Assembly: GCF_009914755.1 (NCBI RefSeq)
Contig: NC_060932.1
DNA: 64,000 bases
Reading direction: 5' to 3' (one strand)
From: the human T2T-CHM13v2.0 reference genome, Homo sapiens
Positions 8,401 to 35,269 of the stretch are shown in pieces (the first letter of the stretch is position 1; each line of letters starts with the position of its first letter). The notes below the pieces were generated by a model, which was not told the origin of the DNA, made no database searches, and saw only the letters and a program-made list of their open reading frames with translations. Made by a program: the position numbers and the translations under genes.

Positions 8401-8524
8401 CTCACAAATACAGTGCACACGGTAGAACGAGGCATTTTGAATCAGCTACACGTACAACTAATGGAGCTCAGAAGCTGTCAAGGATATAAGCAGTGCAACC
8501 CAAGACCTAAGAATCTTGATGTTG
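8401..8524 (+). CDS. SULF1: SULF1 coding exon
   Basis: Follows a 90-nt GT-AG intron; encodes [41 protein letters not shown]+G; donor G|GTAAGG; ends in phase 1. Confidence 0.97.
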
Positions 8525-10477: not shown

Positions 10478-10511
10478 GAAATAAAGATGGAGGAAGCTAT
10501 GACCTACACAG
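10478..10511 (+). CDS. SULF1: SULF1 34-nt penultimate microexon
   Basis: TCAG| acceptor, CAG|GTATTC donor; encodes (G)NKDGGSYDLH(R) and joins the flanking exons in the canonical frame. Confidence 0.95.
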
Positions 10512-11132
10512 GTATTCACACTTTTTTATTCTTCTCAACAGCTTCTTCCCCAATAATTGCATGATCCAGTGGTTTCAACTAATTTCTGTTTCTTACCGTG
10601 TTGCACAGAGCAAAGCTGGGGGTGCATGCTTGTTCTAACAGCATTCTCCACTATGTTTTGTCATTGATCACAGAACTGTCATTTTGCTTTTAAATCAGCT
10701 CACTGTCCCATCAAGATGTTCCAGAGCATTTACTCACTCCCATGCTTGTTTGCTTGTTGGATGATGCTTTTAAGCATGGAATGATGTGAAGGAAAAAAAA
10801 CAGAATGGCCTTTGGGAGCCCCGGGAAAGGGTGGGAGATTTATTTTCTTTGTGGTACTTACACATTGATTTGGTGGGGGAGCTTCATGAAAATGGGTTGG
10901 AGATTTTTATTAAATATAGCATCAAAGGCACAAAATGACTAATGAGAATTTTAAGAGCACTGTAAGGCCGAAGTTGAAGGAAACAAGGAATTTCTTTGTT
11001 GATGTTCATTCATTAACTTTGGTGGTGAAAAGCAGCAGCCGTAAGATTCTGAAAGCTCTGCAGAGAGGTGGTGAATAACGAGAAGGTGCTGGGAGTTGGG
11101 GACAGAGTACCGGGAGTCAAGACACTAGTAAA

Positions 11133-11440
11133 GGGCCACACACAGTGGCTCACACCTGTAATCCTAGCACTATGGGAGCCCAAGCGGGAGGATTGCTTGA
11201 GTCCAGGAGTTTGAGACTAGCTTGGGCAACAAAGTGAGATAAAAAAAAATTTTTAACTAGCCAGGTGTGGTGATGCACACCTGTAGTCCCAGCTACTCAG
11301 CTACTCAAGAAGCTGAGGCAGGAGGATCACTTGAGCCCAGGAGGTTGAGGCTGCAGTGAGCTATGATAGTGACACTGACCTCCAGCCTGAGGGACAGAGA
11401 GAGACCCTGTCTCTAAAAATAAATAAATAAATAAAAAAAT
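11133..11440 (+). mobile_element. AluJ
   Basis: Alu consensus with (TAAA)n tail; TSD-like AAGACACT. Confidence 0.88.
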
Positions 11441-11794
11441 AAAGACACTCAATAGTGTCAACACAGCACCAAGACAACACACAAACATTCCATAAACAAC
11501 CCTCAGCCCTGTCATTTTATGCCCCTCCAACCCTCATCCATCCCTCACTGTGCTCTGGAGGGGGGACGCACGCTCCTGATGGCCGTGTCACTTGGTCACC
11601 TGGCAATATTCGCCATTGCTAATTTTCTACTCTGAGCACAGACCTCAGGCAGGTCTGCCACCCGAAGCAGCTGGGCACTGTCCTTACCGCCTCTGCTGAG
11701 ACAAAACTGAGGCACAGACGTTACCAGTACCCTAGTTAATGTATCCACTTGGGAGAAAAACATCCGTCAAAGAAATGTGAACTTAATTGGTGCC

Positions 11795-11875
11795 ATCTAT
11801 ATTAATATCTTCTTTATCTATATTAATATCTTCTTTATCTATATTAATATCTTCTTCATCTGTATTAATATCTTT
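11795..11875. repeat. 21-bp minisatellite, about 3.9 copies
   Basis: Unit ATCTATATTAATATCTTCTTT. Confidence 0.95.
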
Positions 11876-14192
11876 AAAATTAACATCCCAAAGAATGTTG
11901 CTGTTCCTGGTACCCTGTTCGGCCCCTCTAACCTCCAGAGCTATGGTCTCAGATGCTTCCTTTTAGAGAGAAGGTCATTAGTCCACCAAGAAGCCAAATG
12001 ACAACAGGAAAGGTGATGGGAAGATGAAAACAAAGGAAGGTGGACTTTTGGGTATATGTTATAGCCATGTATGTATGTCTTCTTTTTTCTATTTTCTCTT
12101 GTTCTTCATCTTAACTGTCCTCAGTCTGCCCCACACCAACCCTGTGTCACTCCCAGCACACATAAGACAGAGCAGAAGACCCCATCCTTGAGCTGGTCTC
12201 CCCTGGGTATGGGCTGAGGTAACATCCCACACACCAGGACGATCTTCCCTGCCTCCCATCGGTCACATTAAGACATTTTCAAAGTGTAATATTATAAATG
12301 GACCTACCTCTAAATATTGACTTTACAGTTATTTTATGAGGCACTCAATTTATAGCTAAGGGTTTTTCAGTCTAGTGTCATGAAAGAGATAAAAGGGTGT
12401 TCACAGATTATTTAAGACATAAGGCTGGTCAGGGATGAGTCAGAGAGTCATTCTCCATGAAGTCACCCCTGGCCAACTTTGAAAGGAAGAATGTTTAACT
12501 GCACTTTGGGCGTAAATGACAAGCATCTGGGACCCTCCCCTTCCCTGATCCCTGCCACCACCACTCAATCGGCCAGATAATCAATTGTTTCTGAGGTCAC
12601 TTTCACATAATCTTGGCAACTTTAGTTGTTGAAAGCATGCATGCAGGGGCAACATGGTGTTACCTGTTGCTTTTTTTTTTCCCCTTCTAAGCTCCTTACC
12701 AGAGAGCAGATCTAAGGATACTGTGTAACTTGAAATAACCGGCATTTTCAGACTTTGCCATTTCATAGTCCATAGGGCAAGCCATCTTTCAGTGGATATC
12801 CACATGGTGGGCAGGAAATCTTGACATTGGTTTCTCAGAAAATATCTGCCTAGTCACACCTGGGAATTCACTAAACACCCAAATGCAGTGTTTGATGTGG
12901 CCTTACCTGCTCCTTGTATCTTATTGGATTGAATGAGAACAGATGCAAAACAAGTATGTACAGAAATGCCAGGAAAACTACTGTCTTCCAATGGGGTTCA
13001 ACAGTTCAAAGCCCTCCATTGATGGAGCCACTTAGGAGGTTTCAGTGTCTTAATTCTTTTAGATTTTGACAGTTTTAGAAAACTAAAAAAAAAAAAAACA
13101 AGTTTTTATCGTGAAATTTGATTACAAAAGATTTTGAGAGAAATGATAAGAACCAGATCTGAAGAATTTGAAATTTGAAAATTCAGCAGAGCATTTTTTT
13201 AAATGTATCTTGTACAAGATGAACTAAATAAATGTTTTTAAACTGACTTCTTTTTGGTGGATTTCAAAAGTTAACCTTCAGACTTATTTAGAGGGTTTTC
13301 ATAAAGCAAGTTTTTTTCTGTTGCTGCTCAATTTCTTTCTTTTCTTTTCTATCTTTTCTTTTCTCTTCCTTTTGCTGTTCCCTGTGTGTGAAGCAGGAGG
13401 GGCAGCTGAAATGCTTTGCATACTCACCCTGGTCATTTTCCAGTTAGGACAAGCTCAAAGGGAGAGCACAGCTCAGAAGGTGGCACTCATGACTCAGGAA
13501 ATAATTTGTGGCTCATTTGAAAGCAGCATCTTCTAAGTGTGTTGCAAAATAGAGAAAAATCAACAGGTTGTTGGGGTGTTTATTTTCCCCACTGCGTATG
13601 AAAGCTGGTGCTGCTGCCCTTTGATGGCCAAGAGGAGCTCCTGGCAGCCGTGGCCATGTGTCCCGGGGGTGTGTGGGGCAGGCGGTCAGTTCTTGGCAGC
13701 CTTCCTCTGGCAGGGCTGCTTCCTGATCCTTTGCTTCAAGCCTTCTGGGCTGTTAGACCACACAGAGCTCCACCCTCAGCAGCCACGCTGTAACCACATT
13801 GCTTTCACTGATTTTGACTCATCTCCCCCATAGTGACAGTGTGTGCCAAAGGTGGCTGTGGGTGACACAGCCGTGTGTTCGTGCTGTACGGCACTGTGGT
13901 CATGGGGGTGGACGCTGGAGCTCCTGATTAGTTTGAGTTCAAATCCCAGCCTCGCTGGTGGGCATGCTTAGAACAGACCCTGGCAGGGGCCAAGCCCCAG
14001 TAAGTGGTGGAGTCATTGGTAAAGGATAATGCTGAATGCAGGACATTTATATGGATGAAAGAGTATGGGGAAGGGAATTTCAGTGATATGAATTCCAAAG
14101 CGTGTTAGTATATTTTATAAGAAACAAAAAGGTATTCACCAGCACCACCAAACTCCATCATCAGTCACAGGCAACCAAGAATTGATCACTCT

Positions 14193-26697: not shown

Positions 26698-28158
26698 TCT
26701 ACTTTCTTTTATGGTAATTTGATATAGATTTAGGTTCTTTTATTTCATGGATTTATACTATTTACAACCCTCCTGGTTTAAGAGAATTCTTTTCTGTGAG
26801 TGTAACTAAGTATACTTCCTCTTTACCTTTTTATTTTATTATTATTTGGGAGTGAAAGTGAGAGAGGTTGTGTGTCTTCCAACTTTTCGTATCTCTTTTT
26901 TCTTGCAGGATCTGAAATTTCCCATCTTTTGCTTCCTCTTTGTTTTACCACCCAGTTTCCAATGGCTGTTTCTCCCTTCTCTCTTCCTTTGTGTCCTTTT
27001 CTGCCCTAAGCAATGCCTCCCAGACTGCTGCCTTCAATCGTGCACAGGCACAAGGCTGGGACTTAGGGGTCCCATCCTCATTGTCAGTGCTGTGGCTCAC
27101 CAGGAATCTTTACAGTATTTTATGCAAAAGATTGACGTTCTTTCCACCAACAGCCTCCAATCAATCTTTGACTCCACTGACACTTCCCTCTTCTCTCTTC
27201 CATACTGTTTTCCCAGAGCTTGTGGCCACAGTGTGACATTCAGCTCTGCTGGGATTTGGTGTCAACGTTTTTTATCTACACGTGATCTGAAGATTGTAGG
27301 ATTCTCTATCTTCTAGCTAGACCGAGGTTGTGGGTTTGGTATAGTTTTGCTTATTCTTCTTGCTGGTCTGTATGGCTTTATGGGTGGTCATTGCACTCAT
27401 CTAGGCCACCTCTTTCCAAATGGTACTTAGGCACAACTAGAGAACAAGTGTTATTTTCTGCAGGGCTACAGTCATCCTGGAGATGTAGAAAGATCTGAGA
27501 GAGAGAAAGCTGGTGCCTTCTTTGCATATGAGAAAGTCATTCAGTTATCTAAGGCACACATTTATCTAGGACATAGAACTTTCAGGGCAAAAACAACAAT
27601 CAAAGAAATAAATCCAGGCATTTGATTTGAAGAGCTTAATTGCATTCAGATTTGCTTTTATACTGAGTGTTAGGGAATATAAAATAAAAATATCATACTA
27701 AGCATTGCCTATTACATTCAAATACTTTCAAATTTGTCATTCACCCAGCAACCTTATAAGTAGTAATGATTTTATCATACAACTATTTCTACACTTGACA
27801 GATGAGGGAGCAAGACTCAGAGGGACTCACTCACATGCTCTTCTGGTTGCAAAGTTGATTTGAGTGGGGCCAGGAGTGAAACCCAAATCCCCTGGCTGAA
27901 AGGACCGTGCCATTTTCAGCACTAACCATGCTTAGTCATAGATGTTTTCACGAATGTGATCTTTTTTTTCCCCAATTTTCTGTTGTTTAATCACCTGTAA
28001 CCTAAGGCCACTCTGTGATAACAAATGACTAGGGGAAAATGCTTTTGAGTGTCATACTTCTCATTGATTAACTCTGTAAAAACAATGTAAGTTGCTTGTC
28101 CAGGTAAGTAGAAAGCCTTTTCTCCACTAATGATTCACCTTCTTCTCTCTTTTCACAG

Positions 28159-28189
28159 AGGACAGTTATGGGATGGATGGGAAGGTTAA
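28159..28189 (+). CDS. SULF1: SULF1 terminal exon, canonical coding part (R)GQLWDGWEG*
   Basis: Strong acceptor CTTCTCTCTTTTCACAG|; Sulf-family WDGWEG end; TAA at 28187-28189. Confidence 0.96.
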
Positions 28190-28976
28190 TCAGCCCCGTC
28201 TCACTGCAGACATCAACTGGCAAGGCCTAGAGGAGCTACACAGTGTGAATGAAAACATCTATGAGTACAGACAAAACTACAGACTTAGTCTGGTGGACTG
28301 GACTAATTACTTGAAGGATTTAGATAGAGTATTTGCACTGCTGAAGAGTCACTATGAGCAAAATAAAACAAATAAGACTCAAACTGCTCAAAGTGACGGG
28401 TTCTTGGTTGTCTCTGCTGAGCACGCTGTGTCAATGGAGATGGCCTCTGCTGACTCAGATGAAGACCCAAGGCATAAGGTTGGGAAAACACCTCATTTGA
28501 CCTTGCCAGCTGACCTTCAAACCCTGCATTTGAACCGACCAACATTAAGTCCAGAGAGTAAACTTGAATGGAATAACGACATTCCAGAAGTTAATCATTT
28601 GAATTCTGAACACTGGAGAAAAACCGAAAAATGGACGGGGCATGAAGAGACTAATCATCTGGAAACCGATTTCAGTGGCGATGGCATGACAGAGCTAGAG
28701 CTCGGGCCCAGCCCCAGGCTGCAGCCCATTCACAGGCACCCGAAAGAACTTCCCCAGTATGGTGGTCCTGGAAAGGACATTTTTGAAGATCAACTATATC
28801 TTCCTGTGCATTCCGATGGAATTTCAGTTCATCAGATGTTCACCATGGCCACCGCAGAACACCGAAGTAATTCCAGCATAGCGGGGAAGATGTTGACCAA
28901 GGTGGAGAAGAATCACGAAAAGGAGAAGTCACAGCACCTAGAAGGCAGCACCTCCTCTTCACTCTCCTCTGATTAG
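28159..28976 (+). CDS. SULF1: Alternative-frame SULF1 C-terminal extension (272 aa) reached by skipping the 34-nt exon
   Basis: G(8524)|AG GAC AGT TAT GGG ATG... reads EDSYG and then the 267-aa ORF 28173-28976, open to TAG; no repeat origin apparent. Confidence 0.7.
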
Positions 28977-30565
28977 ATGAAACTGTTACCTTACCCTAAA
29001 CACAGTATTTCTTTTTAACTTTTTTATTTGTAAACTAATAAAGGTAATCACAGCCACCAACATTCCAAGCTACCCTGGGTACCTTTGTGCAGTAGAAGCT
29101 AGTGAGCATGTGAGCAAGCGGTGTGCACACGGAGACTCATCGTTATAATTTACTATCTGCCAAGAGTAGAAAGAAAGGCTGGGGATATTTGGGTTGGCTT
29201 GGTTTTGATTTTTTGCTTGTTTGTTTGTTTTGTACTAAAACAGTATTATCTTTTGAATATCGTAGGGACATAAGTATATACATGTTATCCAATCAAGATG
29301 GCTAGAATGGTGCCTTTCTGAGTGTCTAAAACTTGACACCCCTGGTAAATCTTTCAACACACTTCCACTGCCTGCGTAATGAAGTTTTGATTCATTTTTA
29401 ACCACTGGAATTTTTCAATGCCGTCATTTTCAGTTAGATGATTTTGCACTTTGAGATTAAAATGCCATGTCTATTTGATTAGTCTTATTTTTTTATTTTT
29501 ACAGGCTTATCAGTCTCACTGTTGGCTGTCATTGTGACAAAGTCAAATAAACCCCCAAGGACGACACACAGTATGGATCACATATTGTTTGACATTAAGC
29601 TTTTGCCAGAAAATGTTGCATGTGTTTTACCTCGACTTGCTAAAATCGATTAGCAGAAAGGCATGGCTAATAATGTTGGTGGTGAAAATAAATAAATAAG
29701 TAAACAAAATGAAGATTGCCTGCTCTCTCTGTGCCTAGCCTCAAAGCGTTCATCATACATCATACCTTTAAGATTGCTATATTTTGGGTTATTTTCTTGA
29801 CAGGAGAAAAAGATCTAAAGATCTTTTATTTTCATCTTTTTTGGTTTTCTTGGCATGACTAAGAAGCTTAAATGTTGATAAAATATGACTAGTTTTGAAT
29901 TTACACCAAGAACTTCTCAATAAAAGAAAATCATGAATGCTCCACAATTTCAACATACCACAAGAGAAGTTAATTTCTTAACATTGTGTTCTATGATTAT
30001 TTGTAAGACCTTCACCAAGTTCTGATATCTTTTAAAGACATAGTTCAAAATTGCTTTTGAAAATCTGTATTCTTGAAAATATCCTTGTTGTGTATTAGGT
30101 TTTTAAATACCAGCTAAAGGATTACCTCACTGAGTCATCAGTACCCTCCTATTCAGCTCCCCAAGATGATGTGTTTTTGCTTACCCTAAGAGAGGTTTTC
30201 TTCTTATTTTTAGATAATTCAAGTGCTTAGATAAATTATGTTTTCTTTAAGTGTTTATGGTAAACTCTTTTAAAGAAAATTTAATATGTTATAGCTGAAT
30301 CTTTTTGGTAACTTTAAATCTTTATCATAGACTCTGTACATATGTTCAAATTAGCTGCTTGCCTGATGTGTGTATCATCGGTGGGATGACAGAACAAACA
30401 TATTTATGATCATGAATAATGTACTTTGTAAAAAGATTTCAAGTTATTAGGAAGCATACTCTGTTTTTTAATCATGTATAATATTCCATGATACTTTTAT
30501 AGAACAATTCTGGCTTCAGGAAAGTCTAGAAGCAATATTTCTTCAAATAAAAGGTGTTTAAACTT
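28190..30565 (+). other. SULF1: SULF1 3' UTR
   Basis: Repeat-free sequence after the stop, AT-rich beyond ~28976; several AATAAA, distal one at 30546-30551 followed by a T-rich element. Confidence 0.85.
30546..30551 (+). terminator. SULF1: SULF1 distal polyadenylation signal
   Basis: AATAAA with downstream TTTTTTCTGTTT. Confidence 0.75.
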
Positions 30566-33591: not shown

Positions 33592-34138
33592 TAGTTCAAC
33601 TAAAGACATCTTTGCTTGGCTCCAGGACCTACCCCTGCAAAGCAGCTACTTTGATTTCTAAAGTAGCAGCGCACCTCTCGGTGTTACCATTTTGACAAGA
33701 ATACAGCTAGAACAGCTTGATCCTTGGCAGACTTGCCCTTTCTTCAGTGCTTAGGATCTTAGCCATTCCAGCAGGCGAAAGAACAGTTTTTGCTTCTGAT
33801 TTATATTGGTATTTTAAATTGGAACTGCATCAAACTTTGACGTTTCAATTCAAAAGTGAGCACTGAATATCGATCTCCCTGCTTTCCAAAGTCTTTGTGC
33901 AATTAAAAATGTTTTTTGGCTCCCATACACTGAACCAACAGAGGTCATCTCTGCCTAGCTGGCAATTTTGCAAAGAAGAGCGGAACTAGATGCTTTTTAA
34001 CAGCTCTTAAAACACTGAGGTTGTACCAAGTCTGGTGCTAAAGCAAGGACGACAAGTGACCATATTCATAACCTTTCCCCCTCCTCATTTCTTAAAAAGA
34101 AACATTTTCTAATGTGCCTATTCAAAAAGCCCAATACC

Positions 34139-35269
34139 CAAGGACGTCATGTCTAAAACACCAAAAACAATGGCCACAAAAGCCAAAATTGACAAATGGG
34201 ATCTAATTGAACTAAAGAGCTTCTGCACAGCAAAAGAAACTACCATCAGAGTGAACAGACAACCTACAGAATGGGAGAAAATTTTTGCAATCTACTCATC
34301 TGACAAAGGGCTAATATCCAGAATCTATAATGAACTCAAACAAATTTACAAGAAAAAAACAAACAACCCCATCAACAAGTGGGCGAAGGATATGAACAGA
34401 CACTTCTCAAAAGAAGACATTTATGCAGCCAAAAGACACATGAAAAAATGCTCATCATCACTGGCCATCAGAGAAATGCAAATCAAAACCACAATGACAT
34501 ACCATCTCACACCAGTTAGAATGGCAATCATTAAAAAGTCAGGAAACAACAGGTGCTGGAGAGGATGTGGAGAAATAGGAACACTTTTACACTGTTGGTG
34601 GGACTGTAAACTAGTTCAACCATGGTGGAAGACAGTGTGGCGATTCCTCAGGGATCTAGAACTAGAAATACCATTTGACTCAGCCATCTCATTACTGGGT
34701 ATATACCCAAAGGATTATAAATCATGCTGCTATAAAGACACATGCACACGTATGTTTATTGCGGCACTATTCACAATAGCAAAGACTTGGAACCAACCCA
34801 AATGTCCGGCAATGATAGACTGGATTAAGAAAATGTGGCACATATACACCATGGAATACTATGCAGCCATAAAAAATGATGAGTTCATGTCCTTTGTAGG
34901 GACATGGATGAAGCTGGAAACCATCATTCTCAGCAAACTATCCCAAGGACAAAAAACCAAACACCGCATGTTCTCACTCATAGGTGGGAATTGAACAATG
35001 AGAACACATGGACACAGGAAGGGGAACATCAGACACCGGGGCCTGTTGTGGGGTGGGGGGAGGGGGGAGGGATAGCATTAGGAGATATACCTAATGTTAA
35101 ATGATGAATTAATGGGTGCAGCACACCAACATGGCACATGTATGCATATGTAACTAACCTGCACATTGTGCACATGTACCCTAAAACTTAAAGTATAATA
35201 AAAAATAAATAAATAAATAAATAAAAATAAAATGTTAAGAGAGAGAGAAAAAAATAAATAAATAAAAAT
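34139..35269 (+). mobile_element. 5'-truncated L1PA element
   Basis: ORF2 C-terminal 281 aa including the CCHC region; 3' UTR; TSD AAAAAGCCCAATACC at 34124-34138 and 35270-35284. Confidence 0.96.

What the first reader, a model, noticed from the sequence alone, without database searches (positions are those of the whole stretch)
28159..28976. Hidden 272-aa SULF1 C-terminal tail in the '3' UTR', reached by skipping a 34-nt microexon
Seen: an 804-nt ORF (28173-28976) of non-repeat sequence overlaps the canonical stop in another frame. Exon 8401-8524 ends in phase 1; joining it directly to the 28159 acceptor gives G|AG GAC AGT TAT GGG ATG, exactly in frame. ...[26 protein letters not shown] (21-aa tail) becomes ...KNLDV-EDSYGMDGKVNQPRL...LSSD* (272-aa tail). 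The ORF has no Cys and is E/D/S/H-rich; the sequence turns T-rich right after its stop. Established: a stop in the last exon escapes EJC-dependent NMD, and canonical Sulf-1 is 871 aa, so the long form would be about 1122 aa. Inference: a splice-controlled switch makes a little-studied long Sulf-1. Long isoforms may already exist as predicted models; I cannot check this.
Basis: partly seen in the sequence, partly recalled or inferred. Interest (0 to 1): 0.92.

Follow-up and report, generated by a model that had tools for sequence, protein, structure and literature searches.

The report
Known long-tailed SULF1 splice isoform
The open reading frame in the SULF1 "3' UTR" is a real alternative coding exon, kept from sharks to humans and reached by skipping a 34-base exon, but it is already annotated and listed in a 2020 survey, and only its function is still unknown.

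Summary
A 280-codon stop-to-stop frame (28134-28976, +) overlaps the canonical SULF1 stop. It opens at the last-exon acceptor and is read in frame when exon 8401-8524 joins 28159 directly. It is not chance: 0 of 2000 shuffles reach its length, and GC drops from 46% to 33% at its stop. The 272-aa tail is found at the C-terminus of Sulf-1 models of about 1120 aa in primates, rodents, marsupials, birds, reptiles, amphibians, coelacanth, ray-finned fishes and sharks. The junction and several motif islands are nearly invariant. Human SULF2 has no such frame.

The finding is not new. Preussner et al. 2020 (PMC7392665) list this human event and this 272-aa tail as annotated and RNA-seq-supported. They give RT-PCR primers for the mouse event and one mouse-brain peptide from the tail.

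What is unexplored is function. The tail is acidic, mostly Cys-free, matches no Pfam family or solved structure, and carries a conserved acidic Ser-Gly-x-Gly motif. I infer that it modulates the basic heparan-sulfate-binding domain. That inference is untested.

The parts
8401..8524 (+). SULF1 exon 21 of 23. It ends in phase 1 (...AAT CTT GAT GTT G), with donor TTG|GTAAGG.
   Evidence: hub annotation
10478..10511 (+). 34-nt penultimate cassette exon (34 = 3x11+1). Including it gives [12 protein letters not shown] and the short end. Its donor CAG|GTATTC departs from the consensus GTRAGT (consensus recalled) at +4 to +6.
   Evidence: Preussner Table S1 lists its length as 34
28159..28189 (+). Dual-coding start of the last exon. 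It is read as (R)GQLWDGWEG* in the short form and as (E)DSYGMDGKVN in the long form. The acceptor has a long pyrimidine tract.
28187..28189 (+). Canonical TAA stop of the 871-aa form.
28159..28976 (+). Coding part of the last exon in the long isoform: 272-aa tail (E + P0001) and TAG stop at 28974-28976.
28161..28343 (+). Most conserved part of the tail (aa 1-61): DSYGMDGK...W.GL..L...R...DW.NY.KD.D..FALL.
   Evidence: tree length 8.1 against 7.1 for the HD
28668..28700 (+). DFSGDGMTELE island. S172, G173, G175 and E178 are invariant in A2. It is an acidic Ser-Gly-x-Gly motif.
   Evidence: (SG kept in 55 of 58 sequences)
28941..28973 (+). C-terminal EGS(A/T)SS.LSSD motif. E261, G262 and S263 are invariant in A2.
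29037..29042 (+). AATAAA 61 nt after the long-frame stop. A possible proximal poly(A) signal; its use is not shown.

Best explanation
Window 28159-28976 is a true alternative coding region of SULF1.

Shown from the sequence:
- When the 34-nt penultimate exon (10478-10511) is skipped, exon 21 joins the last exon one base out of the canonical frame.
- The ribosome then passes the TAA at 28187-28189 and reads 272 residues to the TAG at 28974-28976.
- The stop lies in the last exon, so the mRNA should escape EJC-dependent decay. That last step rests on established knowledge, as restated in PMC7392665.

Shown from related sequences:
- The tail has been kept as protein at the C-terminus of Sulf-1 throughout jawed vertebrates.
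- It has a conserved module of about 60 aa at its start, faster-evolving acidic sequence with fixed short motifs, and a fixed EGS... end.

Inferred, not shown:
- The tail is mostly disordered.
- Being acidic (net -16 in human), it acts on the strongly basic hydrophilic domain (net +30 in P0004) to tune heparan-sulfate binding, surface retention or activity.
- It may do so after glycosaminoglycan addition at DFSGDG.
For: Sequence:
- Frame arithmetic and in-silico joins.
- 0 of 2000 shuffles reach the length; 3rd longest of 6887 frames.
- GC by codon position is 0.54/0.37/0.49, against a flat 0.33 in the UTR. The period-3 signal is 7.4, against 0.75 and 0.80 in two UTR windows.
- The frame opens 8 codons before the acceptor.

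Conservation:
- With the human tail as query, 100 of 1463 candidates hit at E 1.6e-164 to 1e-21. All carry Sulf-type Pfam domains.
- With the shark tail as query, 117 of 2196 hit. They include sturgeon, bichir, zebrafish, carp, catfish, squamates, caecilians and Xenopus.
- A tail profile gave 184 of 7996. The 120 listed are all Sulf-1-type.
- 58 of 59 full-length models show the tail directly behind exon 21.
- In 149 of 149 models with the YG.DG[KR] junction, the next two residues are [VA][NKS]. Those codons can carry the short frame's T-AA or T-AG stop.
- The ATG at 28173 is not conserved: T or K replaces M in P0018, P0059, P0064 and P0094.

Print (PMC7392665):
- Table S1 lists human SULF1 with this tail as Annotated YES and SupportedByRNASeq YES, and the mouse event likewise.
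- Methods give Sulf1 splicing-sensitive primers.
- Table S2 gives one proteotypic tail peptide in mouse brain lysate #2.

Function, indirect only:
- Net charge is -7 to -34 in 58 of 58 tails; 45 of 58 have no Cys; SG is kept at the DFSG.G site in 55 of 58.
- The HD has net +30.
Against: - I saw no human junction reads, ribosome footprints or peptides.
- Protein evidence is one peptide in one of two mouse lysates, from a custom-database search.
- The RT-PCR gel is in a PDF that I could not read.
- All cross-species sequences are computed gene models. Searching with the tail can return only species whose frame is open. Seven cetacean models end early, at 83% of the tail.
- The tail evolves fast: tree length 19.3 against 2.5 for the catalytic domain and 7.1 for the HD. 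It diverges 4-21 times faster than the core in pairwise comparisons.
- The period-3 measure is a weak discriminator, since a known SLCO5A1 coding exon scored only 1.25.
Disorder rests on a crude charge-hydropathy estimate.
- The functional proposal has no direct support.
Confidence: 0.9

Rival explanations
1. The exon is truly coding and conserved in vertebrates generally. In humans, however, the skipped transcript is a minor by-product of a weak microexon donor, and the long protein is too scarce to matter.
For: The microexon donor CAG|GTATTC is weak and the exon is only 34 nt, so some skipping is expected regardless of function. No human protein evidence was seen. The second acidic ..ESSG.. 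motif of non-mammals is lost in human. CHM13 differs from the GRCh38-derived tail at two residues, one of them inside the conserved EGSAS end.
Against: The human frame is intact over 272 codons. The tail is no more diverged in primates than in birds: gibbon-Aotus 'tail rest' is 84.9% identical and stork-crow 85.1%, with tail/core divergence ratios of 21 and 16. The event is RNA-seq-supported in human and mouse according to PMC7392665 Table S1.
Confidence: 0.15
2. The frame is open by chance or through non-coding (UTR) constraint, and skipping yields a tolerated frameshift product with no selected protein sequence.
For: PMC7392665 argues that many 3'UTR-encoded ends are proline-rich, destabilising and poorly conserved between orthologues.
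Against: 0 of 2000 shuffles reach the length. Protein-level homology extends to sharks at E 1e-21 to 1e-26. The C-terminal motif keeps its register across all clades. Proline is only 5.2%.
Confidence: 0.03
3. The ORF is an independent downstream cistron, translated from ATG 28173 on the canonical mRNA.
For: An ATG opens 804 nt of frame at 28173. Unnamed proteins of 269-279 aa that cover only the tail exist in the representative library (P0102, P0104, P0107, P0109).
Against: The residues before the ATG (EDSYG) are as conserved as those after it. The Met is replaced by T or K in several species. Named models join the tail to Sulf-1. The unnamed stand-alone entries carry no annotation and may be exon-wise gene calls.
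Confidence: 0.02

Closest known systems
[quoted passage not shown] 2020, Genome Biol 21:186, PMC7392665)
   Same: The mechanism is the same: a penultimate exon whose length is not divisible by 3, a new stop in the last exon, and no NMD. SULF1 is itself an entry in their human and mouse tables, and one of four mouse genes for which splicing PCR primers are given.
   Different: That class is described as proline- and PxxP-rich, destabilising and often poorly conserved between orthologues. The SULF1 tail has 5.2% Pro, is acidic, and is conserved to sharks and ray-finned fishes. It therefore looks like an old bona fide exon rather than a UTR recruited for coding. The paper does not discuss SULF1 in its main text beyond the primers (1 occurrence).
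Chondroitin/dermatan sulfate chain on the hydrophilic domain of HSulf-2 (PMC10721642, passages read)
   Same: It is a polyanionic appendage on a Sulf enzyme, attached at an SG dipeptide, and it slows desulfation. The long Sulf-1 tail is polyanionic and carries a conserved acidic SG.G site.
   Different: In Sulf-2 the chain sits in the HD and has been shown experimentally. In Sulf-1 the site is in a splice-dependent tail and nothing has been shown. That paper calls HSulf-1 'GAG-lacking', on the basis of the 871-aa form.
Short SULF1/SULF2 splice variants of the Dhoot laboratory (quail Sulf1B; human forms lacking exons 6, 7, 8 and 18)
   Same: They are alternative splicing of the same gene, with proposed opposite signalling effects (passages only).
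   Different: Those are shorter, internally deleted forms. In those papers 'full-length' means the short-ended protein, and none of the passages I read mentions a C-terminal extension.
Predicted 'extracellular sulfatase Sulf-1 isoform X1' models of about 1120 aa in public databases
   Same: They have the same junction and tail as the human frame, for example gibbon 94%, macaque 92% and Aotus 85% identity.
   Different: They are computed models without functional study. No human entry was named in my hit lists, because clusters at 90% identity show only one representative.

Membership tests
Splicing-accessible coding 3'UTR (Preussner class) | [quoted passage not shown] | tested here: met
   34 nt; stop at 28187-28189 in the last exon
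Splicing-accessible coding 3'UTR (Preussner class) | Skipping adds at least 20 new residues, at least 10 of them beyond the annotated stop | tested here: met
   272 new residues, 262 of them past the TAA
Splicing-accessible coding 3'UTR (Preussner class) | The skipping junction is seen in RNA-seq | not testable with these tools
   Reported as YES for human and mouse in Table S1 of PMC7392665. No reads were available here.
Splicing-accessible coding 3'UTR (Preussner class) | Typical, not defining: raised proline content and PxxP motifs | tested here: not met
   Pro 5.2%. The paper's own table gives 0.051, with nearly all the motif counts that I could see for this row equal to zero.
Extracellular sulfatase Sulf-1 orthologues | The tail sits on proteins with the Sulfatase (PF00884) and DUF3740 (PF12548) domains, named Sulf-1 | tested here: met
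   No hit named Sulf-2 appears among the 100, 117 and 120 rows listed.
Proteoglycan core protein (GAG attachment site) | Ser-Gly, ideally Ser-Gly-x-Gly, with acidic residues nearby (consensus recalled; the SG dipeptide is called canonical in PMC10721642) | tested here: met
   D-F-S-G-D-G-M-T-E-L-E; SG kept in 55 of 58 sequences; S, G, G and E invariant in A2
Proteoglycan core protein (GAG attachment site) | Xylose-linked glycosaminoglycan chain actually present | not testable with these tools
   Needs expression and chondroitinase/heparinase digestion
Any known protein domain family | Match to a Pfam model or to a solved structure | tested here: not met
   Pfam gave only NMT at E 0.21, 11.9 bits against a cut-off of 25. 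PDB gave 0 hits at E<=10 for the sequence and for the profile.

The most novel reading that the evidence does not exclude
The long form, not the 871-aa form, is the ancestral gnathostome Sulf-1 design. Its acidic tail acts as a built-in polyanion that folds back on the basic hydrophilic domain, or is itself glycanated at the invariant DFSG.G site (plus a second ..ESSG.. site in non-mammals). If so, inclusion of the 34-nt exon is a splice switch between a self-masked, diffusible enzyme and an unmasked, heparan-sulfate-bound one. That would make 'GAG-lacking' Sulf-1 a part-time proteoglycan, parallel to Sulf-2.
Probability: 0.15. Interest if true: 0.75.

Novelty: already known. Interest (0 to 1): 0.35.

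Why it matters
Work on Sulf-1 in development, cancer and fibrosis uses the 871-aa cDNA as 'full length'.

A second C-terminus adds about 30 kDa of conserved acidic sequence. It has been kept for the whole history of jawed vertebrates and has never been assayed. This means that antibodies, recombinant enzymes, knock-down designs and variant annotation all ignore part of the gene product. Variants in 28190-28976 are currently called 3'UTR variants.

It could also bear on the unexplained functional differences between Sulf-1 and Sulf-2. However, the existence of the isoform is not news. It is annotated and sits in a published catalogue.

Tried and rejected
- **Paralogue of the tail in the human genome.** Only the locus itself scored (E 2.4e-182). 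The next hits were E 0.29, 1.8 and 5.5. The chr20 hit (L002) is Alu-rich DNA about 2.2 Mb from SULF2 and is a chance match.
- **SULF2 long frame.** I located the SULF2 last exon. Its +1 frame closes after 34 codons. My first translation was one base off.
- **Reach beyond gnathostomes or into Sulf-2.** The profile search listed only the best 120 of 184 hits.
- **The 1.84-billion representative library.** It gave 40 hits (23 at E<=1e-10) but carries no names.
- **Structure prediction of the tail.** Closed on both tries.
- **ESM Atlas and earlier findings.** Both closed.
- **Domain and structure searches.** Pfam, PDB sequence and PDB profile searches found nothing for the tail. No Sulf structure is in the PDB copy, only distant sulfatases covering the catalytic domain.
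- **Rfam and tandem repeats.** Nothing.
- **Literature.** Searches for SULF1 with splice variant / C-terminal, alternative splicing / exon / isoform, penultimate exon, microexon (0 papers) and long isoform turned up only PMC7392665 for this event. The query did not force the gene name and was uninformative. SULF1 mentions in PMC5216415 and PMC10949708 concern other or unspecified events.
- **Relaxed constraint in primates.** Considered and dropped, because tail/core divergence ratios in primates match those in birds.

Full report
**Observation**

- Exon 8401-8524 ends ...AAT CTT GAT GTT G, in phase 1.
- The 34-nt exon 10478-10511 reads (G)GA AAT AAA GAT GGA GGA AGC TAT GAC CTA CAC AG.
- The last exon starts AGGACAGTTATGGG at 28159.
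- With the 34-nt exon, the frame gives GQLWDGWEG and stops at TAA 28187-28189.
- Without it, the frame is G|AG GAC AGT TAT GGG ATG... and runs to TAG 28974-28976.
- A coordinate-based in-silico join gives 21 residues after NLDV in the first case and 272 in the second.
- The stop-to-stop frame is 28134..28976, 280 codons. It opens only 8 codons upstream of the acceptor.

**Chance**

- Of 6887 stop-to-stop frames in the window, this one is the third longest. The two longer ones (58098-59489 minus, 34113-34994 plus) fall in intervals that the hub table lists as repeats.
- None of 2000 dinucleotide-preserving shuffles of the last exon reached 272 codons (mean longest 82.6, maximum 201).
- The other five frames of the same stretch carry 11 to 25 stops.
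- GC is 46.1% inside the frame and 32.8% in the rest of the exon.
- GC by codon position is 0.54/0.37/0.49, against a flat 0.33 in the UTR. A period-3 signal of 7.4 compares with 0.75 and 0.80 in two UTR windows. That measure is not a general test, since a known SLCO5A1 coding exon gave only 1.25.
- There is no tandem repeat and no Rfam match.

**What it is**

With the 271-residue translation (P0001) as query, and restricted to longer proteins, 100 of 1463 candidates scored E <= 1e-3, from 1.6e-164 to 1e-21. All carry Sulf-type Pfam domains. Where a name is given, it is Sulf-1, sulfatase 1, arylsulfatase or hypothetical protein. They include models of 1118-1127 aa, many labelled 'isoform X1' or carrying no isoform label at all. 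The species are primates, rodents, carnivores, ungulates, marsupials, turtles, a gharial, many birds, amphibians, coelacanth, sharks and rays.

A second search used the catshark tail (P0100 residues 821-1119). It gave 117 of 2196 candidates. It added squamates, caecilians, Xenopus, sturgeon, bichir, eel, shad, characins, catfish, carp and zebrafish.

A profile of ten tails gave 184 of 7996. The 120 listed are all of the Sulf-1 type, and the 64 weaker ones were not shown. No listed hit is named Sulf-2.

In an alignment of the 59 models of 1090 aa or more, 58 carry the tail directly behind the ...C.PR.K.L[DE]. end of exon 21. The junction EDSYGMDGK and the next 60 or so residues are close to invariant from shark to primate. 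The exception, P0075, is a low-quality model that mixes both frames.

In the 10-taxon tail alignment A2, the following are identical in all rows: G4, T15, L23, L26, E31, R37, D46, W47, K52, D53, D55, FALL 58-61, N139, P142, S172, G173, G175, E178, F208, Q211, YLP 213-215 and EGS 261-263. A reading frame that keeps its register and its last motif across this span is a protein-coding sequence.

**The overlap**

In all 149 models that have the YG.DG[KR] junction, the next two residues are V or A followed by N, K or S. Codons for these residues can spell T-AA or T-AG in the -1 register. This is what is needed for the short form's stop to persist in the other frame. It is an inference from protein sequences only, because I had no DNA of other vertebrates.

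The remaining 22 of 171 long models split as follows:
- 3 are frame chimeras (P0075, P0090, P0091).
- 2 are bichir models with a variant junction, again followed by AS.
- 17 are teleost models with a different junction (AEHSQPGTSTKVK...).

Human SULF2 ends GQLWEGWEG*, like the short SULF1 form. Its +1 frame closes after 34 codons. The short end is therefore at least as old as the SULF1/SULF2 split. The tail is specific to SULF1 as far as I could see. The human genome holds no other copy of the tail: the self hit scored E 2.4e-182, and the next hits scored 0.29, 1.8 and 5.5. The first of those lies in Alu-rich DNA far from SULF2.

**How constrained**

On one fixed tree of 57 full-length models, tree lengths were:

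| Region | Tree length |
|---|---|
| Catalytic domain | 2.5 |
| C-terminal domain | 2.3 |
| Hydrophilic domain (HD) | 7.1 |
| First 67 tail residues | 8.1 |
| Rest of the tail | 23.5 |

The start of the tail evolves like the HD. The remainder evolves about three times faster, with fixed islands. Tail/core divergence ratios are similar in primates (21 for gibbon-Aotus) and in birds (16 for stork-crow). I therefore see no sign of special decay in the human lineage.

Seven cetacean models stop early, at 83% of the tail, and lack the EGS end.

A caveat applies to all of this. The sequences are computed gene models, and a search with the tail can return only species in which the frame is open.

**Already in print**

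Preussner et al. 2020 (Genome Biol 21:186, PMC7392665) surveyed frameshifting skips of penultimate exons that extend the frame into the annotated 3'UTR. I read the abstract, section 5 and passages of the main text. I also searched the xlsx supplements and read the first part of Table S1.

- The Human sheet of Table S1 lists SULF1 ENST00000458141 with the exon triple ending in a 34-nt middle exon. It gives the old end [21 protein letters not shown], this 272-aa new end, Annotated YES, stop in the ultimate exon, and SupportedByRNASeq YES.
- The Mouse sheet has the orthologous row, also YES and YES. The LiftOver sheet pairs the two.
- Methods give splicing-sensitive RT-PCR primers for mouse Sulf1, one of four genes. 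The gel must be in Additional file 1, a PDF that I could not read.
- Table S2 lists one proteotypic peptide of the mouse tail, found in brain lysate #2 only.

The main text mentions Sulf1 only in that primer list.

Six further literature searches found no other paper on this event. One of them, for SULF1 with 'microexon', returned no papers. For most of the papers returned I judged from listings only. Passages from the SULF literature that I read treat the short-ended protein as full length, and deal only with shorter variants.

The phenomenon, the human event and the exact tail are thus already known and annotated. The depth of conservation and the motif content are, as far as these searches show, not discussed.

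**How it probably works**

Shown:
- The frame shift follows from skipping an exon of 3n+1 bases.
- The new stop is in the last exon.
- The microexon has a poor donor: CAG|GTATTC, against GTAAGG and GTAAGA at the two upstream exons. The last exon has a long pyrimidine tract.

Established knowledge, as stated in PMC7392665: such an mRNA is not a target of EJC-dependent decay.

Inferred:
- The tail matches no Pfam family. The best hit has E 0.21 and 11.9 bits against a cut-off of 25. There is no PDB match by sequence or by profile.
- A crude charge-hydropathy estimate puts the tail on the disordered side.
- The tail is acidic in 58 of 58 species (net -7 to -34; human -16) and Cys-free in 45 of 58. 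The hydrophilic domain that binds heparan sulfate has net +30 in P0004.
- The island [DE]FSG[ND]G.TE.E keeps its Ser-Gly in 55 of 58 sequences. The exceptions are P0013, P0197 and P0210. Most non-mammals have a second ..E[ED]ESSG.. motif that human lacks.
- Ser-Gly with acidic neighbours is the canonical glycosaminoglycan attachment signal. Sulf-2 carries such a chain on its HD, and removing the chain speeds desulfation, while Sulf-1 is called GAG-lacking (PMC10721642, passages).
- From this I propose that the tail tunes the HD's hold on heparan sulfate, either by its own charge or after glycanation, so that exon-22 inclusion sets enzyme range or rate.

Nothing here tests that proposal. No structure model could be made.

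**Verdict**

The feature is already known as an annotated isoform and a catalogue entry. It is atypical for its published class in being old, acidic and proline-poor. Interest is moderate. It lies in the unstudied function, not in the existence of the frame.

Noticed in passing
window 28731-28733 and 28950-28952: The CHM13 window reads His (CAC) and Thr (ACC) in the tail frame. At the same places the GRCh38-derived tail printed in PMC7392665 has Arg and Ala (..PIRRHP.., ..EGSASSS..). The second difference lies in the conserved EGSAS end. Both are currently counted as 3'UTR differences.
   Followed up: partly
proteins P0003, P0008, P0014, P0026, P0033, P0047: Sulf-1 models of about 905-922 aa from macaque, elephant, rabbit, pika, cattle and sheep carry the long tail. 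They start MASKKSMDLIM.. and lack about the first 203 residues, including the signal peptide and the catalytic CxPxR. This suggests an alternative first exon. These are predicted models only.
   Followed up: partly
proteins P0030, P0037, P0038, P0039, P0041, P0042, P0045: All seven cetacean models end ..SVHQ at 83% of the tail and lack the EGS C-terminal motif. This points to a shared early stop in whales and dolphins.
   Followed up: no
17 teleost models, e.g. P0186-P0194, P0198, P0199: Teleost long forms have AEHSQPGTSTKVK-type residues at the junction instead of EDSYGMDGKVN. The dual-coded segment may therefore not be kept there.
   Followed up: no
window 29037-29042: AATAAA lies 61 nt after the long-frame stop. 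Further AATAAA/ATTAAA signals are at 29456, 29546, 29687, 29919 and 30546.
   Followed up: no
window 10478-13246, 10478-10517 and 11894-12068: Other annotated exons would give alternative ends of 53, 23, 12 or 35 residues after NLDV. The 10517 and 8525 exon ends are not followed by GT.
   Followed up: partly
window 58098-59489 (-) and 34113-34994 (+): Open frames of 463 and 293 codons lie inside repeat-masked intervals. They are presumably remnants of transposon genes.
   Followed up: no
proteins P0075, P0090, P0091: Three database models (monk seal, sheep, Chinese hamster) read the short end [20 protein letters not shown] and then jump into the tail frame. These are annotation artefacts caused by the overlapping frames.
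   Followed up: no
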